Origin: Candidatus Saccharimonadota bacterium
GTDB taxonomy: Bacteria; Patescibacteriota; Saccharimonadia; Saccharimonadales; Saccharimonadaceae
Direction: 5' to 3'
DNA: 32,000 nucleotides
Assembly (NCBI GenBank): GCA_023898645.1
Contig: CP060232.1
Coordinates: 870,001-902,000 of the forward strand
The notes beneath the pieces are model-generated. The model did no database searches, was not told the DNA's origin, and was given only the letters and a program-made list of their open reading frames with translations. The number at the start of each line of letters is the position of its first letter. The stretch's first letter is position 1. This document shows, piece after piece, positions 7,939-31,185 of the stretch. The position numbers and the translations under genes were made by a program.

Positions 7939-9573
7939 CTACTTCGAGCGCGTCACTTGATAAACGATCGTACCTCTCGTTGATTGAACTACTGGAAACT
8001 GCGCAAGAAAATGATCATTAACTTGATACGCTCGGCGCAACTCATCATCGACTACAATGTATGACACTCGATAGTAAGCCAACAGTTTTTTAGCGTTGTC
8101 AGAACCAGAAACAATCTCACCTATGTCTTGTCGTACCTGAGTGTAGTCGATTCCGTAAGACCAGAGCCAACCATCATACGCCATTAACGCCTGCGTATTG
8201 CTTAGCATGGTATACGGCTGGTCACTTTTTTGACTATCTATAATAATCGCGCCAGAAGGAGCAATGCTTCGAAAATGAGCTACTGCTTGATAATCGGTTG
8301 CTTGCACTAACGTGTACGTGTGGGTATCGAACTGAGACATATGAACAATATCGAGCAGTCCCGAGCCGCCAAGCAGCACGACACATACGACAGTTAACAC
8401 CTTTTCTTCATATCGACGACGCTGATCCCACCATGCGAGTAACTGCATCACTATAGGTATAAGCAAAAATAGATAACTATAAGTAAATAACTTCGTATTG
8501 TCCCATTCCCATACCTGGAAAGACACGAAGTGACACACGGTAAAAATACCCAGTGCACTTATAAACAACGGATGCGATAGCCATTTTTGTCGCCAAGCAG
8601 AGTAAACGCCAAGCGGCAGTAAAATGCCAAAATTCAATAACTCAAAACCGAGTAAGTTATGTCCAGCCGACATCCAGCCAAGCTGCCAATGCGGTAAGCT
8701 GCCGCTGCCACTATTTAAGAGTAGAAAGTACCAGTACGCCCCGATTCCTATCTCAGCGACAAGTGCATACCATAGAAATAGTCCATATTGCCGACGGTAC
8801 CGTAGCAAATAAACTGCCGACACTATCACGACTACGATAAGTGAATGCGGATGTATTATGGTTAAAATACCAGCGAGAAGTCCGGCGCATACCGCTTGGT
8901 ACACCGACGCCTTTTTAGCGACCATTCGCTCCAAAATCAATATGATCGAAAGTGCTATGGGCAAGCCAAACAAAAAATTACGTTGCGGTAGCATTTCTCC
9001 TACCACGAAATTGATGAAATAAATTCCATGTTCGGGCATATGCGTATACCATTCATGCGTCACGCCATACTCGCTCAGATAATACAAAAATCCTAAACCA
9101 CCGCTCAGCAAAAACAAACTCAAGGCAACTACTGCACTTTTTACCCGTCCGGTAAAATGATACGCAAATCGGTAGAGTACATACAGCATTATTATCGTCA
9201 TAAAAATACTTGGCACAATAAATGACGGCACCACCCCTACCCCTGTTCGCATAAGTAATCCTGAAAGCGCGTCCGGCAAAAACGGATACGTAAACTTGGC
9301 ACCTGCAAATAATGGATGAGCCAGAAACCAATCATGAGGTGCCCGATAGGCAAAAACTGAGGCGTAGGATAAATGACTCGCCCAATCCGCCCATAGCAAA
9401 GAATGCCCGGAAACTATATCTCCCTTGGAATCATTGCGAAATACATTAACCCAAAGCCAAATAAAATAACCACCCCATAGCGCGAATACAGCGAATAAGC
9501 CACGTTGGTAGTTATTCAAGCTCCGTAATGCCATGCGGGATTTTTTTAGAACAGCTTTTTTAGACCACTTCAT
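7939..9573 (-). CDS. Large polytopic integral membrane protein with C-terminal soluble domain (a GT-C-type glycosyltransferase is only a guess)
   Basis: 544 aa with many hydrophobic helices over the first ~400 aa, followed by a hydrophilic ~130-aa tail. I could not name any diagnostic motif with confidence. Confidence 0.5.
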   Translation of the reverse strand: MKWSKKAVLKKSRMALRSLNNYQRGLFAVFALWGGYFIWLWVNVFRNDSKGDIVSGHSLLWADWASHLSYASVFAYRAPHDWFLAHPLFAGAKFTYPFLPDALSGLLMRTGVGVVPSFIVPSIFMTIIMLYVLYRFAYHFTGRVKSAVVALSLFLLSGGLGFLYYLSEYGVTHEWYTHMPEHGIYFINFVVGEMLPQRNFLFGLPIALSIILILERMVAKKASVYQAVCAGLLAGILTIIHPHSLIVVVIVSAVYLLRYRRQYGLFLWYALVAEIGIGAYWYFLLLNSGSGSLPHWQLGWMSAGHNLLGFELLNFGILLPLGVYSAWRQKWLSHPLFISALGIFTVCHFVSFQVWEWDNTKLFTYSYLFLLIPIVMQLLAWWDQRRRYEEKVLTVVCVVLLGGSGLLDIVHMSQFDTHTYTLVQATDYQAVAHFRSIAPSGAIIIDSQKSDQPYTMLSNTQALMAYDGWLWSYGIDYTQVRQDIGEIVSGSDNAKKLLAYYRVSYIVVDDELRRAYQVNDHFLAQFPVVQSTRGTIVYQVTRSK

Positions 9574-10096: not shown

Positions 10097-10124
10097 TTGC
10101 CAGTACAGCATAAAAGATTATAAT
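10097..10124 (+). promoter_or_regulatory. Promoter for the PafA/Dop-like gene: -35 TTGCCA, 16 nt, -10 TATAAT, then 7 nt to the ATG
   Basis: TTGCCA is at 10097-10102 and TATAAT at 10119-10124. ACCCCTT follows, then the ATG at 10132. Confidence 0.6.
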
Positions 10125-10131
10125 ACCCCTT

Positions 10132-11511
10132 ATGCATAGCGTTACTGAGACAAAAATCACGCCAGACATGTTTTTCAATGAAGAGCCACCAGAGCGAATC
10201 ATCGGAGTCGAAGATGAGTACGATATTCAGATAGCAGCACAACCGAGTGGTTCATCCGCTCAAGCGGGTGATTATATATCTCAACAGGCAATCAAAAATG
10301 CCGGACTTCGAGTTCTTGGTAACTACACGGAAAACGGCGCTAAACTTTACCAGGATATGGGTCATGCCGAATATTGTACGCCAGAATGCCTAGGCCCCTA
10401 TCAAGCCGCCGCAGCAGACATAGCGGGGATGCATGTTATTGCGTCAGTCGTCGAAGCGTCGGGGCTAAAACACAACGGATTGTACCGAATTAGTGGTACA
10501 TGGGACAATGCAGAGTATGGAACAACTAATGGTGTCCATGAAAACTTTATGGCTCCGGCGTCTATTTCTCATAACAGCCTTCTTGTTAATCTTCTCCCCA
10601 CCTATTACGCTACTAGACTAGGTACTATGGCGGGCACTATTTCTCGTAACAAATATATTTTTTCTCAAAAAGAACATGGTATCGGCGACGCCCCAATCGA
10701 AAGGCATCTTATCCGACGTGTCTCGCACGGCAGCAAGCCAATGGCGCTAATATTAAAGGAAGAATCAGAAACCGTCGGCAACGGCTGGCTACGACTTGAA
10801 ACCAGATACGCTGACGCACCGATATCACTGGCAGCTCGTCGCCATGCTCTCGCCACGACATCTCTTATGCTACGCCTGGTCGAGCATGAAAATCTGTTCA
10901 ATGAAAGTGAGTTCGACGACATCATTCTTAAGGATCCCGTTTCCGCTACACACGTATTCATGAGAGACATGTCACTTCGAAAAAAAGCCGAGGTACGTTC
11001 CGGTAAGCGCCTCAATATGCTCGATATCGAAGAAAAACTCGCGGAAAAAGTACTATTCCTGTGCGAGCGTATAAAACTGCCTGAAGACGAAATCGATGCC
11101 GCAAATATCTGGCCAATTATCAATGCCGCATTCCGCCGTAGTAACCCAGCGAAAGCTGATTATGACCCCTACTTACTGCGTGAATACGGAGTTGCCACGA
11201 AACATTATTGGCTCAAGCGTATCGGTGCGTTCGACAAAGGCGACGCTGAATCAAAAACACGCTCTTTGCAATGGGACAGAGTGCTTCCTACGGGTAACGG
11301 TATCGCAATGATGAAAAATTCCAAAACCGTAGACCCAGAAGTAGAGACACTACAAACAACCGCCCCGCTTACACGTGCGGCCATACGCCAACAATTCATA
11401 CAGGAATTCGAAAACAATCCAAAAGCAAGAGTTACTGACTGGAACGGTGGCATTTTGCCACCCAGAAGTATACCTATAGACTTTTCAGACCCGTACGGTT
11501 ATCGCGACTAG
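10132..11511 (+). CDS. Pup ligase/deamidase family protein (PafA/Dop homolog, divergent)
   Basis: 459 aa. Alignable by eye to mycobacterial PafA as I recall it: [10 protein letters not shown] vs [30 protein letters not shown] vs [30 protein letters not shown] vs [26 protein letters not shown] vs LLPFLVTRQLICGAGKV. It directly abuts a Pup gene. Confidence 0.8.
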   Translation: [459 protein letters not shown]

Positions 11512-11736
11512 CTACTGGCCGCCCTTTTGCTTGTAAGCATTGACGAACTCTTCGGCGTTCTCTTCTAGTACGTCATCCATCTCATCAAGCATACTATCAA
11601 TATCATCGACAGTTTCCGAAGACCATTCTGCTTGATTATCTGCGGTAGCAGCCCTGCCTAAATCTCTAGTTGTTGACTCGTCGTCGTCACTACGATTTTC
11701 ACGACCCGATACTTGTCCACCTTTTTCACCTGCCAT
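11512..11736 (-). CDS. pup: Prokaryotic ubiquitin-like protein Pup (GGQ C-terminus)
   Basis: 74 aa, acidic and low-complexity. The C-terminal LDEMDDVLEENAEEFVNAYKQKGGQ is nearly identical to the actinobacterial Pup tail (...DDVLEENAEDFVRAYVQKGGQ as I recall it). SD AAAGGGGG lies 4 nt before the ATG. Confidence 0.9.
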   Translation of the reverse strand: MAGEKGGQVSGRENRSDDDESTTRDLGRAATADNQAEWSSETVDDIDSMLDEMDDVLEENAEEFVNAYKQKGGQ

Positions 11737-11805
11737 AGAGCCCCCTTTTGTTATAAGGCTATTTTACTCCTTAGTCAGGTTATTGCAATACAGCCACAAG
11801 CGTCA

Positions 11806-12021
11806 TTAAAGTAACTTTTTAATACCGCCCAGAACCAAGCCCTCTATACCGCCAACCATTTCGATAGTATTGATCCAAAATTCTTTTTTTGTATACTCCA
11901 GTAATACCAGCCGCCCCAATTCGCACAACGTTACAACACGCACGTCATCGCGCCTTGTATCCGCCTCCAATGCGCCCTCGGGGTACACATTTTGGTCTTC
12001 GTATTCATGATTTTTTGCCAC
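11806..12021 (-). CDS. Hypothetical 71-aa protein immediately upstream of pup
   Basis: GTG start preceded by AAGGGGGA with 4 nt spacing, the same SD type as pup. Acidic N-terminal half and hydrophobic Gly-rich C-terminus (MVGGIEGLVLGGIKKLL). No family recognised. Confidence 0.5.
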   Translation of the reverse strand: MAKNHEYEDQNVYPEGALEADTRRDDVRVVTLCELGRLVLLEYTKKEFWINTIEMVGGIEGLVLGGIKKLL

Positions 12022-17588: not shown

Positions 17589-18245
17589 CTAAGAGTTAAA
17601 TGTGACCGTACGGATAAGTGCGCTGAAGTCGTCCTTGAAGGTGTCTTTCGCATCGGTACGTAGTGTAATCGTCTTGTCGCGGCAGCGATAGATCACCGCG
17701 TCACCACGTATATCACTGCTGAAATCGCCAGACAATCGCGTATACGGCTGTCCATTAGACGAGCCCGTAGAAGACAGCAGCTTACCTGTCTGTATAAGGT
17801 TTTGATACTGGGCAAGTACGTTGTCATAATCTCGCTGTTCAATCAATACGCGAAGTGCAAACTGTTGTGAATCAGTTACATTCGGTACAATACCCGGGTT
17901 TAAGTAAGCCTTATAATTACCCCCGTTAACAAGTTTCTCAGATTCGTATGCGCTCCACGTCCTTGGGTACTGGAATCTAAGACCGCAATAATCATCAGGG
18001 GCTTTAAATGTCTGATTCGGTTGTTTTGCCTCCTCGAGATACTTCGCCTCGTCTCGAGTCGACTGATCTTCCTTAGCCTGCGCAACTTTAATCGCAATTT
18101 TTTGATCAAGATTACTCTGTGCATCTTGGTATGCCACAAATGCCCAGATACCGAAAGAACCGAGACCAAGCACTAATACACTAAGACCGATGACGGCCAC
18201 CATTAATCCTGAAACGACGCCTGATTCATTTTTATGCAAACTCAT
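17589..18245 (-). CDS. Membrane-anchored extracytoplasmic protein, unknown function
   Basis: N-terminal TM (VVSGLMVAVIGLSVLVLGLGSFGIWAFVAY) followed by a soluble domain. The ATG at 18245 lies 7 nt downstream of TATAAT (complement of 18253-18258), so I prefer it to the track start at 18254. Confidence 0.6.
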   Translation of the reverse strand: MSLHKNESGVVSGLMVAVIGLSVLVLGLGSFGIWAFVAYQDAQSNLDQKIAIKVAQAKEDQSTRDEAKYLEEAKQPNQTFKAPDDYCGLRFQYPRTWSAYESEKLVNGGNYKAYLNPGIVPNVTDSQQFALRVLIEQRDYDNVLAQYQNLIQTGKLLSSTGSSNGQPYTRLSGDFSSDIRGDAVIYRCRDKTITLRTDAKDTFKDDFSALIRTVTFNS

Positions 18246-18287
18246 GAGTGTCATTATACTTACGCTTCTTACGTCTGTAAAGAGAGT

Positions 18288-18791
18288 TTACGGTTCAAAA
18301 AGATAAAGATCATGTGCATGAAGTTTTTTTACTGGCTTAACTCCGCGCAAACCAGCCCCGTATGTAATACACAAGAGTGGTTGGCCATGCTTTTTCACAT
18401 GATTCCTTAATTTGTTTGCCAGCTTTTCAGAATCGCGCGAAACCGAAAACACATAAACCACTGTTGTATCCGCTGGAAAATCGATCAACCACATATCAGC
18501 AAGTTTTGTTGTTTGACGCTTGTCGCCCACCGCCAATATACGGCTAACGAACACAAGAACCGGATTCAATTCGTAGCCTATAGCACGCGCACCGTAGCTT
18601 GTTGCTAAGCGCAAAATAACACCGTCCCCCGAACCCAAATCAACCAATATGTCGCTCGATTTCAATTTATATAATTTTGTCAGGGCCAACTTAACGTAGC
18701 GACGATGACTCGGCAGGTAGGGAGCGCCTCGAAAGACGACAAATCCAAACGTGAAGACAACAGCAAAAAGTACCCAAAACCATGCCATCAT
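18288..18791 (-). CDS. Class I SAM-dependent methyltransferase with N-terminal TM helix
   Basis: Motif I is ILVDLGSGDGVILRLA, followed by GYELNP. An N-terminal hydrophobic segment is present. ATGA overlap with the xseB stop. Confidence 0.6.
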   Translation of the reverse strand: MMAWFWVLFAVVFTFGFVVFRGAPYLPSHRRYVKLALTKLYKLKSSDILVDLGSGDGVILRLATSYGARAIGYELNPVLVFVSRILAVGDKRQTTKLADMWLIDFPADTTVVYVFSVSRDSEKLANKLRNHVKKHGQPLLCITYGAGLRGVKPVKKLHAHDLYLFEP

Positions 18792-25064: not shown

Positions 25065-26264
25065 TTAGAAATAGATGTATGTATCGTATGTCGCAGCCGA
25101 CACGCGCATCTTACTGTAATTGCCCCAGCCTGGGCCACCTGCATTGTAATAATTGTACTGGCTTACGTCGACGGTACCATCACCATTAACCGCCTCTACC
25201 CAAACGGCGTGGCCATACTCACCCGCCGAAATGATGCCAATTGAGTTAACACGTGGCGTGTTGCCAGTCTCGTAACCAGCCGCCACAGCGCTGGAAGGCC
25301 ACTGATTTGCATTCCCCCAATACATCGGGAAATTGCCACTGTAATGCCCTGCACGCCACGCTGCATAACTAACACATTGTCGGCAACCGTAGCCTAAGGC
25401 ATCCGTACCATCACCGTACGTACCACCATGTGAATATACATTCGAATCAACCCAACAACCAGCTTCCCACGGGTAACCGCCCTTGTTCGGATCGCCTGGC
25501 AAGATATTCGCAGGGATACCACCGCTAGCAGCACGGATAGCAGCTTCAATCGCTTCCTGCTGCTTTTGCTGGACCTCTAGCTTCTGACTTTCACGCTGAG
25601 ACACTAGGCTAGCATACGCAGCCTCCTGACCTTTCGTTTGAGCGATTAGTTGCGCTAACTGATTTTGTTTTGCCACAAGAGCATCCTTAGCCTGCTTTTG
25701 TTCGGCAATCACTCGGTCCACATCCTTTTTCTGTTGCTCTAGAAGCACCTTGGTACTTTTAATAGTCGTGATTGCAGTCACTAAATTATCACGAATGGTA
25801 TTGCGGTAAGCCTGCTTGTCTACAAAGTCGGCAATACTTTTACTACTAGCGAGCATTTCAAGTGGTGATACGTCACTATCCACATACAAATTGGCAATCG
25901 TGTCACCAAGTGCATTTTGATTATCAATAATCTTCTGTTGATTGTCCGCGATCTGTTTGCTAAGTTTATCGTGCTCGGCCTGCTTTAAATTAATTTGCTT
26001 CTGAATGACGTTTGCTTGCGCCTGAAGTGCACTCTTCTCTTTTTTCAAGGAGTCAGTTTGACCGCTTAACTTCTTTGCTTGCGCTTGATAGCTATCGATT
26101 TCAGACTGAATTCGAGAAATCTGGTCATCGAAACTATCAGCCTTTACCACCTTGATAATCTGAAACGGTGTTGTCGCGACAAACAAAAGAGTTACCGTGA
26201 GTATTGCTAGTTGTTTCGCGGTAATTTTTATTTTCACGACCGGCATGGTGGACCATCGTTTCAT
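25065..26264 (-). CDS. PcsB-like secreted peptidoglycan hydrolase: signal/TM, long coiled coil, C-terminal CHAP domain (paralog A)
   Basis: Heptad-rich region (QISRIQSEIDSYQAQAKKLSGQTDSLKKEKSALQAQANVIQKQINLKQAEHDKL...). The CHAP domain has a Cys motif (GCRQCVSYAAWRA) and a His motif (GEYGHAVWVEAV). Confidence 0.8.
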   Translation of the reverse strand: MKRWSTMPVVKIKITAKQLAILTVTLLFVATTPFQIIKVVKADSFDDQISRIQSEIDSYQAQAKKLSGQTDSLKKEKSALQAQANVIQKQINLKQAEHDKLSKQIADNQQKIIDNQNALGDTIANLYVDSDVSPLEMLASSKSIADFVDKQAYRNTIRDNLVTAITTIKSTKVLLEQQKKDVDRVIAEQKQAKDALVAKQNQLAQLIAQTKGQEAAYASLVSQRESQKLEVQQKQQEAIEAAIRAASGGIPANILPGDPNKGGYPWEAGCWVDSNVYSHGGTYGDGTDALGYGCRQCVSYAAWRAGHYSGNFPMYWGNANQWPSSAVAAGYETGNTPRVNSIGIISAGEYGHAVWVEAVNGDGTVDVSQYNYYNAGGPGWGNYSKMRVSAATYDTYIYF

Positions 26265-26273
26265 TCTGGGGTG

Positions 26274-26282
26274 ATTATAGCA
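26274..26282 (-). promoter_or_regulatory. Extended -10 TGcTATAAT, 9 nt upstream of the paralog A ATG
   Basis: The reverse complement of 26274-26282 is TGCTATAAT. Confidence 0.45.
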
Positions 26283-26310
26283 TAAGCACTATGATTTGTC
26301 CAGATACGGA

Positions 26311-27504
26311 CTAGGCGTTCGGGAAGCGAAGAAAGATAACGCCAGAATTTTTGATCCACATAGTACTGTATTCACCGGTTCCATAGAAGTTATATTGGCT
26401 CACAAACACGTTGTCACCGCTCACCGATTCTACAATCATTGCATGTCCTATAGGCGAAAAGGGATACGTTGCCGGTAGAATTACTGCATCGCCGGGCTGA
26501 GGAGAGCCAACCTGGAACGCACCGCTGTATGCAGGCGCGCTGTAAGTCCACTGGCCTGCATTACCTTGTCCGTTGAAATTACCGACATATTTATGGAACC
26601 GCGCCGAAAGAGCCCAGGCTACGTAACTAACACATTCTCTGTTGTATAAACCCCATGGATCAGCATATGTATCTTGACCGCCACAGTATGGATATCCGCC
26701 GCCGCCACCGCACCCTTGGTTACCGCTCCAACCCCAGTACTGGAAATTACCGACGACTCCGCTATTACCGCTACCCGCAGCAATGAGCGACGCGTAATAG
26801 GCTCGTTGAGCCGCAGCGGCCGAAGCAATCTGGTCCTTAGCGCTACTCACAAGACTTTGATATGCAGCTTCTTGACCTCGAGTCTCATTTACAAGCTGCT
26901 GCTGCGTTGCCTCTTGTGCTGCTAGCTGATTATTTTGAGCCTTAAGCTGGCTCAATACCTTTTCAACTGCCTGTTTGTCACTATCAAGACGTGCTTTTAA
27001 TTGCTTAATCTGGGCAATTGCACTATTCAATTGATCCCGAACAGACGACCTATACTCCTGTTTGTCTACAAAATCACCAATATTCTGGCTACTCGCTAAT
27101 AATTCAACCGTCGAGATATTGTCATCGACGTATAGGTTCGCAAGTACGTCACCGAGTACATTTTGGGTTTTGGACAATTTTACTTGGTTTGCGGCAATAT
27201 CAGCCTGTAACTTCTCGTGCTTTTTCTGATTAATTTCAATTTTAGTCTGCAACGCATTAATCTGCGCACCTATTTCGTAGAGCTTGTTTTGCAACGTATC
27301 TGCTTTGGCTCGTAACTGATTTGCTTGTGCTTGGTACTCATTTGCTTTGGACTGTAGTGATGCAATCTGATCATCCCACTCGTCGGCAAGTGCGTGTTGT
27401 ACATACGCAAGTGGCACGCTCACTGCAATCAACAGTGCCATACTAGCCAGTAAGAACCGTCTAGGCAAGAATCTTCGGCGGAAAGTGGTGGACGCCTTTT
27501 TCAT
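26311..27504 (-). CDS. PcsB-like secreted peptidoglycan hydrolase: signal/TM, coiled coil, CHAP domain (paralog B)
   Basis: From the ATG at 27504: MKKASTTFRRRFLPRRFLLASMALLIAVSVPLAYV (signal-like), then a coiled coil, a Gly-rich insert GCGGGGGYPYCGG, and CHAP motifs Cys (NRECVSYVAWAL) and His (IGHAMIVESV). The track start at 27567 is a TTG adding 21 unlikely residues. Confidence 0.8.
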   Translation of the reverse strand: MKKASTTFRRRFLPRRFLLASMALLIAVSVPLAYVQHALADEWDDQIASLQSKANEYQAQANQLRAKADTLQNKLYEIGAQINALQTKIEINQKKHEKLQADIAANQVKLSKTQNVLGDVLANLYVDDNISTVELLASSQNIGDFVDKQEYRSSVRDQLNSAIAQIKQLKARLDSDKQAVEKVLSQLKAQNNQLAAQEATQQQLVNETRGQEAAYQSLVSSAKDQIASAAAAQRAYYASLIAAGSGNSGVVGNFQYWGWSGNQGCGGGGGYPYCGGQDTYADPWGLYNRECVSYVAWALSARFHKYVGNFNGQGNAGQWTYSAPAYSGAFQVGSPQPGDAVILPATYPFSPIGHAMIVESVSGDNVFVSQYNFYGTGEYSTMWIKNSGVIFLRFPNA

Positions 27505-27563
27505 ATGTACTTCTATGGTAATACTACCCTGTTTCTGCGTCAATACGCTTAAGCTTATACTTA

Positions 27564-28541
27564 TCAAAGTTTGAGGTACTTACGAGTCGCCAGTAATGAC
27601 GAAACTACACCTATTGCCGCACCAACAAATATCATGGCTAGCAGCAAGAACGGCATATATTGTGTCACAATATGAATCGTATTCGAAATCGCAATCTGAT
27701 AACTATCAAGCGAATCCTTTACAGCATACAATATCGCCACGCCGAGTCCAGTCGCAATGACGGCCGCAATAAAGCCGTACACGACTGCCTCTACCACAAA
27801 CGGCCCGCGTATAAAGCTACGATCCGCACCAATGAGCTTCATCATCTGAATCTCTTCTCTGCGGTTAAATATAGCCATACGAATGGTATTAAAGATGATT
27901 AGCGACGAGATAATGATAAAGATAGCACTAGCAAGTAGCCCTGCGTTCTGAGCAAATTGAATAGCTATACCGATATTCTGAATGGCACTGCGTCGCTCAC
28001 CACTAAACGACGGTTGACGATTTGGGTCTGCATATTGTTTATATAGATCATCATTTTTGACGAAGCGATCCAGCTGCGAGGGGTCATTAATGTCAACGAT
28101 ATTCACCCGGAACGTCCCCGGAAACTTGTTCGTAGCTTCGTTAAGCGCTTCAAGTGTCTGTGCATCGCCCTTGTTTTGATCGGCGAAGTCAGACCGCGCC
28201 TGGTCGGGACTAACGTAACGCACGCGTTTTACGCCGGGAAGTTTTGCTATTTTGTCCTGAATCTGGCTGGCGGCATCGCTAGGCGTGGTCGTCTGAACAT
28301 AAATCGACATATCAGTCTTCGCCTTAATGGCATCGACCGTATCCACCAGCACCTGCCGTGCGACAAGTGTCATAAAGATAATCAGCAGTGTAATTGTCAT
28401 AACTGCCGTCGCAGCGACTGTTAGCCAAGCATTACGACTAAAGTTATTTACACCATAGCGACACATACGCACGAACGTCAGCCACTTGCGGCGCGTTTGC
28501 TTACTCTGTGTTAATGCTCGAGGTGCGTTATTTTTTCCCAT
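27564..28541 (-). CDS. ftsX: Cell-division ABC transporter permease-like protein FtsX
   Basis: Basic N-terminus, TM1, a large extracytoplasmic loop (VDAIKAKTDMSIYV...VRYVSPDQA), then three C-terminal TM helices with the FtsX-type pattern. The ATG at 28541 lies 1 nt after the ftsE stop codon (28543-28545); the track GTG start is at 28574. Confidence 0.88.
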   Translation of the reverse strand: MGKNNAPRALTQSKQTRRKWLTFVRMCRYGVNNFSRNAWLTVAATAVMTITLLIIFMTLVARQVLVDTVDAIKAKTDMSIYVQTTTPSDAASQIQDKIAKLPGVKRVRYVSPDQARSDFADQNKGDAQTLEALNEATNKFPGTFRVNIVDINDPSQLDRFVKNDDLYKQYADPNRQPSFSGERRSAIQNIGIAIQFAQNAGLLASAIFIIISSLIIFNTIRMAIFNRREEIQMMKLIGADRSFIRGPFVVEAVVYGFIAAVIATGLGVAILYAVKDSLDSYQIAISNTIHIVTQYMPFLLLAMIFVGAAIGVVSSLLATRKYLKL

Positions 28542-28542
28542 A

Positions 28543-29229
28543 CTACTGCCTATAACTTCCCTGCGCCTGATCACTGACTACCTTGCCATGATCCAACGTA
28601 ATGACTCGACGCTTGAGTTTGTTCACGATTTCAACATTATGCGTTGTAAGCAACACTGTCGTTCCGTATTTATTGATCTTCTCGAGTAACCGTACAATAT
28701 CCCAGCTGTGTTTTGGGTCCAGGTTGCCAGTAGGTTCGTCCGCTATCAATATTTTTGGCTGACGTACAACCGCACGCGCAATTGCTACGCGCTGACGCTC
28801 ACCGCCAGAAAGCTGATGCGGAAACTGACTTTCTTTACCAGTTAATCCTACGAGTTCAATGACTTTTGGCACAGTATTTTTAATCTCATGACCAGTCATG
28901 CCGGCAATTTCTAAAGCAAACGCAATATTTTCATAGACAGTACGTTGTGGTAGTAATTTAAAATCTTGAAAAACAACGCCAATCTTGCGACGCAGTAAAG
29001 GTATGTGCTTGTCTTTAAGCGTGTCATAGTCAATACCTCCAACGACAATCTTGCCGCTAGTCGGCTTCTCTTCTCTGGTCAACAATTTAAGCAAAGTCGA
29101 TTTGCCTGCACCACTAGTACCAACGATGATAACGAACTCTTTAGGTTCGACATGTAAACTGATGCGGTTTAATGCCGACTTATTGCTGTTTTTTCCGTAC
29201 GTTTTCGTAACCCTATCAAGAAGTATCAT
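28543..29229 (-). CDS. ftsE: Cell-division ATP-binding protein FtsE
   Basis: 228 aa. Walker A GTSGAGKST, Q-loop, ABC signature LSGGERQRV, Walker B ILIADEPTGNLD. Located directly upstream of ftsX. Confidence 0.93.
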   Translation of the reverse strand: MILLDRVTKTYGKNSNKSALNRISLHVEPKEFVIIVGTSGAGKSTLLKLLTREEKPTSGKIVVGGIDYDTLKDKHIPLLRRKIGVVFQDFKLLPQRTVYENIAFALEIAGMTGHEIKNTVPKVIELVGLTGKESQFPHQLSGGERQRVAIARAVVRQPKILIADEPTGNLDPKHSWDIVRLLEKINKYGTTVLLTTHNVEIVNKLKRRVITLDHGKVVSDQAQGSYRQ

Positions 29230-29395: not shown

Positions 29396-30478
29396 CTATT
29401 CGCCTAATTGTGATTCCAGATAGGCTTCTATAAAGCCATCAATCTTGCCGTCGAGCACCGCCTGCGGATCTTTCTCTTCATATTTAGTACGAGTGTCCTT
29501 CACTAACGTATACGGATGTAGTACATAGTTACGGATCTGTGAGCCCCAGTTTGCCGATTCTCCAGCGCGTAAATCAGCAATCGATTCAGCATGTTGTTCC
29601 ATCTGTAATTGGGCAAGCTTAGAACGCAAGATCTTCATAGCCGTTTCCTTATTTTGCAACTGGCTGCGTTCGTTCTGAATCGCCACAACCAAGCCAGTCG
29701 GCACATGAGTCACTCTCACGGCGCTATCAGTCGTATTGACTGACTGACCGCCATGGCCACCCGCGCGATAAACATCAACTTTCAAATCTTTGTCATCCAA
29801 CTGCACTTCATCCGGCGTATCAATTTGCGGCAAAACCTCCACCAGCGCAAAGCTCGTCTGGCGTAAATTATCGCTATTAAATGGACTTAGCCGTACCAGC
29901 CTGTGAACACCATTTTCAGACCGCAATTTACCGTAAACATAGGGGCCGGTTATTTCGATGACACTTGACTTGATCCCAGCTTCCTCGCCAGCTGAGCGTT
30001 CAACGGTCGATGCATTCATACTAGACTTTTCCGCCCAACGTAAATACATTCGCTCTAACATCTCGGCAAAATCCTGCGCATCAGTACCGCCCACTCCGGC
30101 GCTTATGCGAATAATTGCATTATGATCATCATATCTTCCGCTATACAGCAATTCCTTTTTGCGATCAGCAAATTCATTTTCTAAAGCCTCTATCTGGCCT
30201 TCAAATTCACTTCGTAAACTGTCGTCACCCAACGCCATCAGCTCGGCCATATCATTCACCTGGGCTTGTAATGTCTGCCACGGCTGCACCATTGCGCCTA
30301 ACGCCGCCTGTTGTTTACTCATAGCCTGCGCATTAGCAGGATTATTCCACACCTCGGGCACGGCAAGTTCGTCATCAAGCGACTGCAATTGCTTGGCTTT
30401 TACGTCAATAGCAAGCTGTTCGTACGCGACAGCTATATCATCCTTCAAAACCTGTATTCGTTTCTCAAGTGGTTGCAT
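29396..30478 (-). CDS. prfB: Peptide chain release factor 2 (single uninterrupted ORF, no programmed frameshift)
   Basis: 360 aa. SPF tripeptide context (RLSPFNSDNLRQTSFALVEV) and GGQ motif (YRAGGHGGQSVNTTDSAVRVTHVPTG). Confidence 0.92.
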   Translation of the reverse strand: MQPLEKRIQVLKDDIAVAYEQLAIDVKAKQLQSLDDELAVPEVWNNPANAQAMSKQQAALGAMVQPWQTLQAQVNDMAELMALGDDSLRSEFEGQIEALENEFADRKKELLYSGRYDDHNAIIRISAGVGGTDAQDFAEMLERMYLRWAEKSSMNASTVERSAGEEAGIKSSVIEITGPYVYGKLRSENGVHRLVRLSPFNSDNLRQTSFALVEVLPQIDTPDEVQLDDKDLKVDVYRAGGHGGQSVNTTDSAVRVTHVPTGLVVAIQNERSQLQNKETAMKILRSKLAQLQMEQHAESIADLRAGESANWGSQIRNYVLHPYTLVKDTRTKYEEKDPQAVLDGKIDGFIEAYLESQLGE

Positions 30479-30519: not shown

Positions 30520-31185
30520 ATGATAAAAATTGGTGTATTTGATTCAGGCGTCGGCGGTGAGGCTGTCGCAGAAAGATTACGTCAATTGTTTCCTGAAGCC
30601 AAAATCATATCGGTAAACGACAGCGCCAACGTACCTTATGGCACCAAAGCGGCGCACGAGATTACTCGTCTAACAGATTCCGCTATACAGCCACTACTCA
30701 AGGCAAAATGCGACGCAATTGTTATCGCTTGTAATACCGCAACGACAAATGCCATCAATCATCTTCGCGCCACCTACCCTAAAGTCCATTTCGTTGGCAT
30801 TGAACCTATGGTTAAACCAGCAGCCAAACTGACCAAAACAAGTGTCATTGCCGTCCTCGCTACGCCCAGCACTTTAAAAAGCCACCGCTACGCAGAGTTG
30901 AAGCGTCAATGGGCGCCAAAACTTACTGTTATTGAGCCTGACTGTGCCAACTGGGCCTCGTTCATCGAACGAGGAGAACTACAACGGGTCGACGTACACG
31001 TAGCTGTTCACGAAGCACTAAGATGGCACTCAGACGTAATCGTACTTGGTTGTACCCATTACCATTGGCTGAAAGACCGCATACAGGCCATCGCAGGCCC
31101 GAGTGTACGCGTACTTGAGCCATCCGATGCAATCGGTGCCCGCATAGAATCACTTCTTTCTACAGACTCTCTACTGCCTGTATAA
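30520..31185 (+). CDS. murI: Glutamate racemase
   Basis: 221 aa. IGVFDSGVGGEAV...NVPYGTK..., first catalytic Cys context VIACNTAT, and second VLGCTHYHWL. Confidence 0.9.
   Translation: MIKIGVFDSGVGGEAVAERLRQLFPEAKIISVNDSANVPYGTKAAHEITRLTDSAIQPLLKAKCDAIVIACNTATTNAINHLRATYPKVHFVGIEPMVKPAAKLTKTSVIAVLATPSTLKSHRYAELKRQWAPKLTVIEPDCANWASFIERGELQRVDVHVAVHEALRWHSDVIVLGCTHYHWLKDRIQAIAGPSVRVLEPSDAIGARIESLLSTDSLLPV

What the first reader, a model, noticed from the sequence alone, without database searches (positions are those of the whole stretch)
10132..11736. Pup (…KQKGGQ) paired tail-to-tail with one divergent PafA/Dop homolog, and no proteasome or Mpa/ARC gene within 32 kb
**Seen in sequence**
- A 74-aa acidic protein ends in LDEMDDVLEENAEEFVNAYKQKGGQ. 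This is essentially the actinobacterial Pup C-terminal helix with its GGQ tail.
- The adjacent 459-aa ORF aligns by eye with PafA/Dop at the N-terminal ExE(Y/F), the NGA(K/R)LY..G.(H)(P)EY..EC block and the HEN(Y/F) block. It is divergent elsewhere; for example, the region matching RPIINTRDEPHAD reads [17 protein letters not shown].
- The two genes are convergent and their stop codons abut (TAG at 11509-11511; complement of 11512-11514). Their transcripts must therefore overlap or share a terminator-less junction.

**Established knowledge**
- A GGQ-ended Pup needs deamidation by Dop before ligation by PafA.
- Canonical loci are co-directional: mpa-dop-pup-prcB-prcA...pafA.

**Inference**
- This may be a minimal pupylation module with only one enzyme visible. 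That enzyme could be bifunctional, or its partner could be elsewhere in the genome.
- The module may be proteasome-independent, as described for Corynebacterium.
- It sits in a genome whose other genes look like those of a reduced or CPR-like organism.
- Pup also carries a second KGGQ near its N-terminus (MAGEKGGQ).
Basis: partly seen in the sequence, partly recalled or inferred. Interest (0 to 1): 0.75.

Follow-up and report, generated by a model that had tools for sequence, protein, structure and literature searches.

The report
Two-gene Pup tagging module in Saccharibacteria
A tiny-genome bacterium of the TM7/Saccharibacteria group carries a real Pup protein tag next to one very divergent Pup-handling enzyme that is neither the known ligase nor the known deamidase. 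The pair could show how bacterial "ubiquitin-like" tagging works with minimal parts.

Summary
Window 11512-11736 (-) encodes a 74-aa Pup (Pfam 66 bits). Its last 28 residues are 22/28 identical to actinobacterial Pup and end in GGQ. Window 10132-11511 (+) encodes a 459-aa Pup-ligase-family protein (Pfam 113 bits; AF2 pLDDT 92.6; TM 0.75-0.78 to both Dop and PafA). The stop codons abut.

The window matches GenBank proteins USN96326-USN96331 on a 1.13-Mb contig. It is syntenic with Saccharimonadaceae MAGs, so the organism is a CPR bacterium.

The enzyme scores about 80 bits on both the PafA and Dop equivalog models (cut-offs 551 and 492). It lies in a Saccharimonadales-only clan (200/200 NJ bootstraps) outside PafA and Dop. 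It lacks the Dop-loop, keeps the catalytic Asp and metal ligands, and mixes PafA-like and Dop-like discriminator residues.

The enzyme-Pup pair is convergent, -22 to +12 nt apart, in 10 of 10 lineages examined, although flanking genes differ. Eight Pups end in Gln (GGQ or NGQ) and two in GGE.

No proteasome or Mpa gene was seen near any locus.

One caveat remains. A second, Pup-unlinked clade of the family sits beside the ATP-synthase operon in other Saccharimonadales contigs. Three searches found no such copy on the 1.13-Mb contig, but whether they would have detected one is uncertain. "One bifunctional enzyme" is therefore plausible, not shown.

The parts
10132..11511 (+). 459-aa enzyme of the Pup-ligase/deamidase (PafA/Dop) fold family. 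It belongs to a Saccharimonadales-specific clade (type A) and matches GenBank USN96327.1.
   Evidence: - Pfam PF03136: 112.7 bits.
- PafA and Dop equivalog models: only 82 and 78 bits, against cut-offs of 551 and 492.
- AF2 model: pLDDT 92.6, pTM 0.93.
- Foldseek: TM 0.77-0.78 to Dop (4b0r, 7oxy) and 0.75 to PafA (4bjr).
- Exact sequence match to USN96327.1.
10333..10389 (+). Catalytic block [19 protein letters not shown] (residues 68-86). It holds Y73 (metal ligand), D75 (catalytic Asp) and E80 (metal ligand).
   Evidence: - Aligned to Dop NGARLYVDHAHPEYS(A/T)PE(C/V) and PafA [20 protein letters not shown].
- D75, E80 and G69 are invariant and Y73 is present in 22 of 23 type-A homologs.
- Residue roles are taken from PMC8599861.
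10210..10218 (+). E27-D28-E29 of the GhExE ATP/Mg motif.
   Evidence: Invariant in 23 of 23 homologs. Corresponds to Dop Glu8 and Glu10.
11512..11736 (-). pup gene: a 74-aa acidic protein (pI 4.05) ending in KGGQ. It matches GenBank USN96328.1, named 'ubiquitin-like protein Pup'.
   Evidence: - Pfam PF05639: 66.1 bits. TIGR03687: 59.5 bits.
- PDB phmmer hits Mtb and Acidothermus Pup.
- Exact sequence match to USN96328.1.
- pI.
11515..11598 (-). Pup residues 47-74 (DSMLDEMDDVLEENAEEFVNAYKQKGGQ). This is the predicted two-helix enzyme-binding segment plus the reactive C-terminal Gln.
   Evidence: - 22/28 identical to the Acidothermus Pup fragment crystallised with Dop (7oxy_B).
- Mean pairwise identity among 10 Saccharibacterial Pups is 50% in this segment, against 24% in the N-terminal part.
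11509..11514 (.). Tail-to-tail junction: TAG (enzyme) directly followed by CTA (pup stop on the minus strand). No intergenic base and no terminator-like hairpin nearby.
   Evidence: Sequence. No terminator-like site between about 10790 and 12258. The same convergent geometry, -22 to +12 nt, is seen in 10 lineages.
10097..10124 (+). Promoter-like site TTGCCA-16-TATAAT (11/12). It ends 7 nt before the enzyme's ATG and there is no Shine-Dalgarno sequence, so the mRNA may be leaderless.
   Evidence: Consensus scan and upstream sequence. This is a consensus match only and is not verified.
11741..11788 (-). Putative pup expression signals. TTGCAA-16-TAAAAT (9/12) lies at 11788-11761. The Shine-Dalgarno-like AAGGGGG (plus-strand 11741-11747) lies 4 nt upstream of the pup ATG.
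   Evidence: These are consensus matches only.

Best explanation
**What it is**
- The window comes from a Saccharibacteria (TM7, CPR) genome. It carries a self-contained two-gene pupylation module.
- Pup is a disordered acidic 74-aa tag. I infer that its last ~28 residues fold into two helices in the enzyme's binding groove, as actinobacterial Pup does on PafA and Dop.
- The adjacent 459-aa enzyme has the full PafA/Dop fold with an intact ATP/Mg site (E27, E29, Y73, E80, H136, and E223 in place of a His) and the catalytic Asp (D75).

**How it most likely works (inferred)**
- The enzyme phosphorylates the side chain of Pup's C-terminal Gln or Glu. It then passes the activated carbonyl to lysine amines of target proteins, forming an isopeptide bond.

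**Where the enzyme sits in the family (shown)**
- It is orthologous to neither PafA nor Dop. It belongs to a Saccharimonadales-only branch outside both.
- It mixes PafA-like traits with Dop-like traits.
  - PafA-like: no Dop-loop, an aromatic residue at discriminator position 7, and D-V/M-G after the catalytic Asp.
  - Dop-like: no extra residue after the catalytic Asp, Pro at position 15, and a predicted non-helical alpha-loop.

**The deamidation step (inferred, unproven)**
- Eight of ten cognate Pups end in Gln, and no Dop ortholog or second family member was detected.
- The most likely arrangement is that this one enzyme also does the Gln-activating (deamidase-type) first step. It would then act as a natural mixed ligase/deamidase.

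**Downstream fate (inferred from absence only)**
- The fate of tagged proteins is probably not a canonical Mpa-proteasome.
For: - **Family scores.** Both proteins pass their curated Pfam cut-offs by a wide margin.
- **Fold.** The model is confident (pLDDT 92.6) and matches both Dop and PafA end to end at TM 0.75-0.78.
- **Active site.** The metal and catalytic residues named for Dop in PMC8599861 are invariant in 23 type-A homologs. His241 is replaced by an invariant Glu, and there is an additional invariant Arg225.
- **Not PafA or Dop.**
  - The window enzyme scores 82 and 78 bits on the equivalog models, and all Saccharimonadales types score 50-125 bits. True Dop scores 609-637 bits and Verrucomicrobia-type homologs 229-288 bits.
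  - The split {PafA, Dop, other-phyla homologs} | {Saccharimonadales types A, B, C} has 200/200 NJ bootstraps. The PafA-Dop distance is 0.91, against 1.83 and 2.33 from type A to Dop and PafA.
- **No Dop-loop.** The GxExE-to-NGxxxY spacing is 43 residues, as in C. glutamicum PafA. In Acidothermus Dop it is about 80.
- **Conserved module.** Enzyme and Pup are convergent, -22 to +12 nt apart, in 10 of 10 type-A lineages (enzyme 35-61% identical where measured). Flanking genes are unrelated outside the closest relatives.
- **Pup termini.** GGQ in four lineages, NGQ in four, GGE in two.
- **Mechanistic precedent.** An engineered Dop/PafA hybrid used PupQ plus ATP directly for ligation. The PafA/Dop ancestor has been proposed to be a promiscuous ligase (PMC7947786).
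- **No second copy found.** No second PF03136 gene lies in the window or within +-10 kb of any locus. Three database searches found none on the 1,134,346-bp contig.
- **No proteasome or Mpa** in the window or among the called genes of any fetched locus.
Against: - **No biochemistry.** Ligase, deamidase and target identity are all inferred.
- **The genome was not searched.**
  - The word-index searches missed many homologs of about 40% identity that the exhaustive search found (versus 37).
  - Failure to find a second copy on the 1.13-Mb contig is therefore only moderate evidence.
- **A sister clade exists (type C).**
  - It sits in a conserved locus: ATP synthase, glutaredoxin, CobA-like gene, enzyme, SNase, GT2.
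  - It has intact catalytic residues, and some members have a longer N-terminal insertion. It could be a Dop-like partner if it co-occurs with type A.
- **Missing conserved residues.**
  - The Arg of INTRDEP, which is essential in PafA (R193A is inactive), is not conserved here.
  - The alpha-loop Thr-Thr is also absent from the window enzyme.
  - The chemistry may therefore differ from the canonical enzymes.
- **Proteasome absence** rests on local context only.
Confidence: 0.65

Rival explanations
1. It is a two-enzyme system after all. The Pup-linked enzyme (type A) is the ligase. A distant paralog (type C, next to the ATP-synthase operon and a CobA-like gene) elsewhere in the same genome is the deamidase/depupylase. 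This would be a duplication and division of labour inside Saccharibacteria, independent of the actinobacterial PafA/Dop split.
For: - Type-C genes exist in Saccharimonadales contigs in a conserved locus, with intact ExE, NG..Y.D and H.N motifs.
- Some type-C members carry a 60-78-residue GxExE-to-NGxxxY spacing, at the position of the Dop-loop.
- No Pup gene lies within +-10 kb of any type-C locus.
- Types A and C form sister clades inside one Saccharimonadales clan. Their internal depth is about as great as the A-C distance, which fits an old duplication.
- Most Pups end in Gln, which in Actinobacteria goes with a separate Dop.
Against: - No contig carries both types. This holds among the roughly 40 A/B and 45 C-type or other proteins listed, including A/B contigs of 1.13 Mb, 407, 357, 286 and 278 kb and a C contig of 293 kb.
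- Three searches with type-A, type-C-profile and type-C-medoid queries found only USN96327.1 on the 1.13-Mb contig.
- The loci differ in G+C: 0.41-0.48 for A and 0.48-0.53 for C.
- The best-sampled type-A organisms (32, 10 and 5 contigs) have no equally sampled type-C counterpart (at most 4 contigs).
- The type-C insertions are variable. They lack the conserved Trp/acidic motif of the Dop-loop (PMC8599861).
Confidence: 0.3
2. The enzyme is mainly a hydrolase (Dop-like deamidase/depupylase), or the pair acts on the host's pupylation system rather than on the bacterium's own proteins. Cultivated Saccharibacteria live on Actinobacteria, which use Pup. The near-actinobacterial Pup could serve as a decoy or be conjugated by host PafA.
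For: - Pairwise sequence and fold scores are slightly higher to Dop than to PafA: 52-55 versus 24-26 bits and TM 0.77-0.78 versus 0.75.
- The alpha-loop is predicted non-helical, as in Dop.
- The Pup C-terminal 28 residues are 21-25/28 identical to actinobacterial Pup in the window clade, while the enzyme is only about 21% identical to Dop or PafA.
- The L006 Pup even matches the Mtb Pup segment that PDB entries show bound to Mpa.
- The actinobacterial host association is stated in PMC10633639 (abstract).
Against: - A deamidase paired with a tag but no ligase has no obvious use.
- No secretion signal or secretion genes are linked to the pair in the Pfam annotations seen for any of the loci.
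- The enzyme clade is old and specific to Saccharimonadales, not a recent transfer from hosts.
- It lacks the Dop-loop and the Dop-specific His after the catalytic Asp.
- It carries PafA-like residues at several discriminator positions.
Confidence: 0.07
3. It is a decaying relic of a transferred pupylation locus with no present function.
For: The enzyme is very divergent from PafA and Dop. Some related lineages (type B: L011, L014, L015, L021) keep the enzyme without an adjacent Pup.
Against: - Both ORFs are intact.
- 37 positions are invariant across 23 homologs that are only 32-78% identical to the window enzyme, and these include every catalytic residue.
- The pair is kept together in 10 lineages whose flanking genes differ.
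- The model folds with high confidence.
- The identical protein was recovered from 5 independent assemblies.
Confidence: 0.03

Closest known systems
Actinobacterial pupylation (Pup, ligase PafA, deamidase/depupylase Dop; M. tuberculosis, C. glutamicum, Acidothermus)
   Same: - The tag is the same: the C-terminal 28 residues are 22/28 identical and end in GGQ.
- The enzyme has the same fold, the same GhExE, Tyr, Asp, Glu and His active-site residues, and probably the same acyl-phosphate chemistry.
   Different: - Only one family member is visible, and it is orthologous to neither PafA nor Dop (about 80 bits on either equivalog; separate clan at 200/200 bootstraps).
- It has no Dop-loop, lacks the Thr-Thr of the alpha-loop and the INTRDEP Arg, has His241 replaced by Glu, and has a new invariant Arg225.
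- The genes are convergent rather than co-directional.
- No mpa or prcBA lies nearby.
- The host organism is a CPR epibiont.
Proteasome-less pupylation of Corynebacterium glutamicum (summarised in PMC8223512)
   Same: Pup tagging without adjacent 20S genes. It shows that pupylation can have a role that does not involve degradation by a proteasome.
   Different: Corynebacterium keeps canonical PafA, Dop and the ARC ATPase in a canonical locus. Here none of these orthologs is seen.
Single-copy PafA/Dop homologs of Planctomycetes (used as outgroup in Hecht et al. 2020, PMC7947786)
   Same: One gene related about equally to PafA and Dop, outside the duplication.
   Different: - The Planctomycetes proteins are 29-31% identical to PafA and Dop and partly align with the Dop-loop.
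- The window enzyme is about 18-22% identical in structural alignments (22-28% in sequence alignments) and has no loop.
- In the tree made here, the Saccharimonadales clan separates from every homolog from other phyla that was included.
- No Pup linkage was reported for the Planctomycetes proteins in that paper.
Engineered Dop2PafA-alpha(Ac) hybrid enzyme (PMC7947786)
   Same: A mosaic of PafA-type and Dop-type residues. The hybrid could use Pup-Gln plus ATP directly to form conjugates, which is the activity a lone enzyme paired with Pup-GGQ would need.
   Different: The hybrid is a laboratory construct that retains the Dop-loop. The window enzyme is natural, lacks the loop, and its activity is untested.
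UBact systems of Nitrospirae, Verrucomicrobia and some candidate phyla (recalled from memory: Lehmann et al. 2017; not held in the library searched)
   Same: Pup-like tags and PafA/Dop homologs outside Actinobacteria, including (as recalled) some CPR groups.
   Different: As recalled, UBact ends in R-[T/S]-G-[E/Q] and comes with Mpa, proteasome and two enzymes. Here the tag is a true Pup (KGGQ) and only one enzyme is visible.

Membership tests
Pup (PF05639 / TIGR03687) | Profile score above the curated cut-off | tested here: met
   PF05639: 66.1 bits against 27. TIGR03687: 59.5 bits against 41.45.
Pup (PF05639 / TIGR03687) | C-terminal Gly-Gly-Gln or Gly-Gly-Glu | tested here: met
   The window Pup ends in KGGQ. 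Relatives end in GGQ, GGE or the variant NGQ.
Pup (PF05639 / TIGR03687) | Small acidic protein whose C-terminal ~30 residues match the PafA/Dop-binding helices | tested here: met
   74 aa, pI 4.05. 22/28 identical to the Acidothermus Pup fragment of 7oxy.
Pup (PF05639 / TIGR03687) | Conjugated through the C-terminal Glu to lysines of target proteins | not testable with these tools
   Needs biochemistry or proteomics.
Pup-ligase/deamidase superfamily (PF03136) | Profile score above the cut-off and the full two-domain fold | tested here: met
   112.7 bits against 25. TM 0.75-0.78 to Dop and PafA over about 460 columns.
Pup-ligase/deamidase superfamily (PF03136) | GhExE, Tyr, catalytic Asp, Glu and His metal/ATP site | tested here: met
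   E27, E29, D75, E80 and H136 are invariant and Y73 is present in 22 of 23 homologs. Dop His241 is replaced by an invariant Glu223.
PafA (TIGR03686 equivalog) | Score at or above the equivalog cut-off, and placement inside the PafA clade | tested here: not met
   82.2 bits against 551.3. It falls outside the PafA+Dop side of the tree at 200/200 bootstraps.
PafA (TIGR03686 equivalog) | No Dop-loop | tested here: met
   GxExE-to-NGxxxY spacing is 43 residues, as in C. glutamicum PafA.
PafA (TIGR03686 equivalog) | L-D-V-G-S insertion after the catalytic Asp, A-T-A before EC, and a helical alpha-loop with H.WEG.SSATTRS | tested here: not met
   - The window reads [13 protein letters not shown], one residue shorter than PafA, with Pro rather than Ala.
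- The alpha-loop is 2-3 residues shorter, lacks the Thr-Thr, and is predicted non-helical (pLDDT about 75).
- Sources.
Dop (TIGR03688 equivalog) | Score at or above the equivalog cut-off, and placement inside the Dop clade | tested here: not met
   77.6 bits against 492.3. True Dops score 609-637 bits. Tree.
Dop (TIGR03688 equivalog) | Conserved Dop-loop of about 40 residues before strand beta2 | tested here: not met
   Absent: the spacing is 43 residues against about 80 in Dop. Loop definition from PMC8599861.
Dop (TIGR03688 equivalog) | His directly after the catalytic Asp (D-H-A-HPEY) | tested here: not met
   Met in the window and Val in 16 of 23 homologs. No homolog has His.
Canonical Pup-proteasome locus | mpa/arc and prcB-prcA next to dop-pup, with pafA nearby, all co-directional | tested here: not met
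   None of these genes is in the 32-kb window or among the called genes of any related locus. Enzyme and pup are convergent. The genome-wide question could not be tested.
UBact | C-terminal R-[T/S]-G-[E/Q] (definition recalled from memory) | tested here: not met
   The tail is Q-K-G-G-Q, and the Pfam hit is to Pup itself.

The most novel reading that the evidence does not exclude
The Saccharibacterial enzyme is a natural one-enzyme pupylation catalyst. It would take Gln-ended Pup straight to a lysine isopeptide, activating the amide and transferring it without a separate Dop. It would also descend from a lineage that split off before, or apart from, the PafA/Dop duplication. That would make it a living counterpart of the promiscuous ancestor proposed for PafA and Dop, working in a proteasome-free, ultra-small epibiont.
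Probability: 0.3. Interest if true: 0.8.

Novelty: new variant of a known kind. Interest (0 to 1): 0.62.

Why it matters
- **Scope of pupylation.** It is regarded as essentially an actinobacterial system built on two specialised paralogs and, usually, a proteasome. Here a true Pup is kept with a single enzyme from a separate branch of the family, in many lineages of a reduced-genome CPR group.
- **If the enzyme is alone.**
  - It must combine the Dop-type and PafA-type half-reactions.
  - That would give a natural test of the 'promiscuous ancestor' idea. So far that idea has been explored only with engineered hybrids.
  - It would also define the smallest known protein-tagging system of this kind.
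- **If a distant paralog elsewhere does the Dop job.** Saccharibacteria would have reinvented the ligase/hydrolase split independently.
- **Host link.** Cultivated Saccharibacteria live on Actinobacteria, which use almost the same tag. This raises the testable question of cross-talk between epibiont and host.
- **State of knowledge.**
  - Both genes are already named by NCBI's pipeline.
  - Full-text searches found no paper that links pupylation with Saccharibacteria or Patescibacteria.

Tried and rejected
1. **Mistaken paralog.** P0185 sits on the same 126,574-bp contig as L008 and looked like a second paralog. The look-up showed it is the L008 type-A enzyme itself, so this was dropped as co-occurrence evidence.
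2. **Contig-length fingerprint.** I looked for a second family member whose 'longest contig' was 1,134,346 bp, using three searches: P0001, a 30-sequence type-C profile, and P0041. None was found. The word index misses many homologs, so this counts only as moderate evidence.
3. **Public collection scans.** The genome-contig scan returned 6 loci and the metagenome-contig scan 4. That is too few for statistics. The metagenome loci (L021-L024) had no Pup.
4. **Enzyme-Pup fusion model.** AF2 on an enzyme-Pup fusion was meant to test docking. The Pup part had pLDDT 31-62 and formed one long helix, so it was uninformative.
5. **Other libraries.** PADLOC gave no hit for either protein. Rfam found nothing and ARAGORN found no tRNA in the window.
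6. **Literature.** Combinations of pupylation, PafA, Dop or Pup with Saccharibacteria, Patescibacteria, candidate phyla or Parcubacteria returned nothing relevant. The UBact paper and Ozcelik et al. 2012 are not held.
7. **A third conserved gene.** The 71-aa ORF at 11806-12021 upstream of pup has no family hit and no tblastn match in the syntenic L006 and L007. It was rejected as a module component.
8. **Special meaning of the abutting stops.** Rejected. Two of the three other convergent pairs in the window are just as tight.


Full report
**1.

- The window has an ORF at 10132-11511 (+, 459 aa) and one at 11512-11736 (-, 74 aa). The enzyme's TAG (11509-11511) is directly followed by CTA (11512-11514), which is the pup stop on the other strand.
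- The 74-aa protein scores 66.1 bits on Pfam Pup (cut-off 27) and 59.5 bits on TIGR03687 (cut-off 41.45). The 459-aa protein scores 112.7 bits on Pfam Pup_ligase (cut-off 25), E 2.9e-32.
- Against solved structures, Pup residues 47-74 (DSMLDEMDDVLEENAEEFVNAYKQKGGQ) align with Acidothermus Pup DAILDEIDDVLEENAEEFVRSYIQKGGQ at 22/28 identical residues. They match M. tuberculosis Pup equally well.
- Pfam scans of the window's ORFs of at least 100 aa taken as genes show ordinary housekeeping genes: mraZ/mraW, CofD, a PIF1 helicase, RNase HI, GlyRS, RecO, XseA, FtsEX, RF2 and Mur ligase. There is no 20S subunit and no Mpa/ARC-type ATPase.

**2. Where the window comes from**

- The enzyme, Pup, RNase HI and GlyRS are exact matches to GenBank USN96327.1, USN96328.1, USN96326.1 and USN96331.1. 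These sit on a 1,134,346-bp contig labelled 'MAG: Candidatus Nomurabacteria bacterium'.
- NCBI already names the two proteins 'proteasome accessory factor PafA2 family protein' and 'ubiquitin-like protein Pup'.
- The gene order is mraW, mraZ, HAD, CofD, LssY, PIF1, RNase H, enzyme, Pup, YgjV, GlyRS, RecO and onward. It matches two MAGs found by a scan of one genome per species. One of them is titled Candidatus Saccharimonadaceae. Neighbouring proteins are 42-89% identical.
- All other titled relatives are Saccharimonadales or Saccharibacteria. The organism is therefore a TM7/Saccharibacteria (CPR) bacterium, and the 'Nomurabacteria' label is probably wrong.
- The identical enzyme occurs in five independent Logan assemblies.

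**3. The enzyme is neither PafA nor Dop**

- On NCBI's equivalog models it scores 82 bits for PafA (cut-off 551) and 78 bits for Dop (cut-off 492). True Dops score 609-637 bits. The roughly 450-aa homologs of Verrucomicrobia-type bacteria score 229-288 bits on both models. Every Saccharimonadales homolog tested scores only 50-125 bits on both.
- An exhaustive HMMER search found 1034 cluster representatives (50% identity level) at E<=1e-3 and 105 at E<=1e-30. This is a large, fast-diverging radiation.
- I built a neighbour-joining tree on 232 core columns. The split {C. glutamicum PafA, five Dops, Verrucomicrobia-type and PafA-leaning homologs} | {all Saccharimonadales proteins} appears in 200 of 200 bootstraps.
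  - The PafA-Dop distance is 0.91.
  - The distance from the window's clade is 1.83 to Dop and 2.33 to PafA.
  - NJ on saturated distances is crude and the tree is unrooted. It does exclude nesting inside PafA or inside Dop.
- The AlphaFold model is confident (pLDDT 92.6, pTM 0.93). It superposes on Dop (TM 0.77-0.78) and PafA (TM 0.75) over the whole length, followed by YbdK/GCS2 and glutamine synthetases.

**4. The active site is intact but rewired**

- Using the Dop residue roles given in PMC8599861, the correspondences are:
  - Glu8 and Glu10 = E27 and E29
  - Tyr92 = Y73
  - Asp94 = D75
  - Glu99 = E80
  - His155 = H136
- These are invariant in 23 homologs that are 32-78% identical to the window enzyme, except Y73, which is present in 22 of 23.
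- His241 is replaced by an invariant Glu223. Two residues further along the same strand there is an invariant Arg225, where Dop has Ile.
- The Arg of INTRDEP is not conserved, although PafA R193A is inactive. Instead the family has a conserved R-R and an invariant K-P (RR..G.KP).

| Discriminator (Hecht et al. 2020) | State in this family | Resembles |
|---|---|---|
| Dop-loop | Absent (spacing 43 residues, as in PafA; about 80 in Dop) | PafA |
| Position 7 | Aromatic in 23/23 (PafA Phe, Dop Ile) | PafA |
| After the catalytic Asp | V/M-G | PafA |
| Insertion after the Asp | No extra residue | Dop |
| Position 15 | Pro in 20/23 | Dop |
| Alpha-loop | Predicted non-helical, pLDDT about 75 | Dop |

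- The Dop-specific His after the Asp is absent.
- Hecht et al. showed that a hybrid of this general kind could both depupylate and ligate. It could also use Pup-Gln plus ATP directly for conjugation.

**5. The pair is a conserved module**

- Every clade-A homolog (the window's own clade) whose contig I could read has a Pup gene immediately downstream on the opposite strand. These are the window, L006, L007, L008 (= L020), L009, L010, L012, L025, L026 and L027.
- The ORF ends lie 0, 1, 1, 7, -22, -7, 8, 12, 3 and 1 nt apart.
- Enzyme identity to the window is 35-61% where measured. Outside the three closest genomes the flanking genes are unrelated. Adjacency and orientation are therefore selected.
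- The tightness is not special to this pair, because two of the three other convergent pairs in the window are equally tight.
- No terminator-like hairpin lies near the junction, so overlapping transcripts are likely but unproven.
- Pup termini are GGQ in four lineages, NGQ in four and GGE in two.
- Mean pairwise identity among the ten Pups is 50% in the last 28 residues and 24% before that. Selection is therefore visible on the enzyme-binding part. It is not evident on the region that, in mycobacteria, binds Mpa.

**6. Is there really only one enzyme?**

This could not be settled. Other Saccharimonadales contigs carry family members in different settings.

- **Type B** (P0038; L011, L014, L015, L021) nests within clade A. 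It has tRNA-Cys and tRNA-Leu downstream and no Pup.
- **Type C** (P0041, P0175, P0115, P0107; L016-L019) lies in a conserved block: atp operon, glutaredoxin, CobA-like gene, enzyme, (kinase), SNase, GT2.
  - Its catalytic motifs are intact, its N-terminal insertions vary, and no Pup lies within 10 kb.
  - It forms a weakly supported sister clade to A.
  - If type C co-occurs with type A, it is the obvious candidate for a Dop-like partner.

Evidence against co-occurrence:
- The three word-index searches listed no second member on the 1.13-Mb contig. No contig length is shared between type A/B and type C proteins.
- G+C differs between A and C loci.
- One apparent co-occurrence, P0185, turned out to be the type-A gene itself.

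Those searches are known to miss homologs at about 40% identity (compare). I therefore put about 0.3 on a hidden partner.

**7. Proteasome independence**

- No PF00227 or Mpa-like gene appears in the 32-kb window or among the called genes of any of the contigs examined.
- The whole genome was not searchable here. This stays an inference, helped only by the lack of conservation in the Pup N-terminal half.

**8. Literature**

- Full-text searches found no paper that combines pupylation, PafA, Dop or Pup with Saccharibacteria, Patescibacteria or candidate phyla.
- Hecht et al. list homologs in NC10, Armatimonadetes, Verrucomicrobia, Nitrospinae, Firmicutes, Proteobacteria and Planctomycetes. They do not list CPR.
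- From memory, the UBact paper mentions some CPR groups. I could not check this.

**9. Verdict**

- The finding is real and more than an annotation curiosity. It is a conserved two-gene Pup module in Saccharibacteria whose enzyme is a third lineage of the PafA/Dop family.
- It is a new variant of a known system, not a new kind.
- The exciting reading, a natural single bifunctional enzyme, is open and directly testable.

Noticed in passing
L016:6304-7782; L017:1156-2685; L018:676-2205; L019:10001-11470: A second clade of Pup_ligase-family genes (489-516 aa) occurs in Saccharimonadales. It sits in a conserved block (F-type ATP synthase operon, glutaredoxin, CobA/CobO/BtuR-like 189-aa gene, enzyme, AAA_33 kinase, SNase, GT2) with no Pup within 10 kb. 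Some members have a 60-78-residue insertion where Dop has its loop.
   Followed up: partly
L011:10010-11401, L014:10001-11392, L015, L021: A well-sampled low-GC (0.38-0.40) lineage has a clade-A-like enzyme (P0038) but no adjacent Pup. tRNA-Cys and tRNA-Leu lie directly downstream instead. Pup is either lost or located elsewhere.
   Followed up: partly
window 10097-10131: A near-consensus promoter (TTGCCA-16-TATAAT) ends 7 nt before the enzyme's ATG, and no Shine-Dalgarno sequence is present. The mRNA may be leaderless. L008 also shows a -10-like GATAAT 7 nt before its ATG.
   Followed up: partly
window 6372/6374 and 31160-31185: Other convergent gene pairs in the window also abut (1-nt gap) or overlap (26 nt). 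Tail-to-tail packing is therefore a general trait of this genome.
   Followed up: yes
whole window: The GenBank record labels the organism Candidatus Nomurabacteria, but gene order and 42-89% protein identity match Saccharimonadaceae/Saccharimonadales MAGs. The taxonomic label is probably wrong.
   Followed up: partly
L006:11394-11615 (-): This Pup (…ATAGQERREKLSEDTDGILDEIDEVLEENAEEFVRGYIQKGGQ) is nearly identical to M. tuberculosis Pup (…STAAGQERREKLTEETDDLLDEIDDVLEENAEDFVRAYVQKGGQ), including the part that binds Mpa in mycobacteria. Its syntenic relatives (the window and L007) are not. Possible explanations are retention of an ancestral sequence or exchange with an actinobacterial host.
   Followed up: no
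L008:11424-11696, L010:3473-3691, L012:11419-11652, L025:7731-7967 (all -): Four Pup homologs end in Asn-Gly-Gln instead of Gly-Gly-Gln/Glu. I have not seen this tail variant described.
   Followed up: no
window 11713-11736 (-) and L006: The window Pup starts MAGEKGGQ and the L006 Pup starts MGNLESGGQ, so both have a GGQ near the N-terminus. The other eight lineages do not. It is probably a clade-specific Gly-rich N-terminus.
   Followed up: yes
window 7939-9573 (-): A 544-aa multi-pass membrane protein has no Pfam, NCBIfam or PADLOC hit. tblastn found no counterpart in L006 or L007, although the genes on both sides are syntenic.
   Followed up: partly
window 25065-29229 (-): Two paralogous coiled-coil + CHAP-domain proteins (399 and 418 aa) lie directly downstream of ftsE-ftsX. 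The arrangement resembles a PcsB-type FtsEX-controlled cell-wall hydrolase set, here duplicated.
   Followed up: no
window 17589-18791 (-): Two ORFs (221 and 167 aa) have no Pfam or NCBIfam hit. The 167-aa one has a weak PADLOC match to mad2 (27.9 bits). Both are conserved in L007 (71% and 42% identity).
   Followed up: no
window 29396-30478 (-): Release factor 2 is encoded as one uninterrupted ORF (TIGR00020, 440 bits, model positions 3-352), without the programmed frameshift common in bacteria. Its presence fits standard use of UGA as a stop codon.
   Followed up: no
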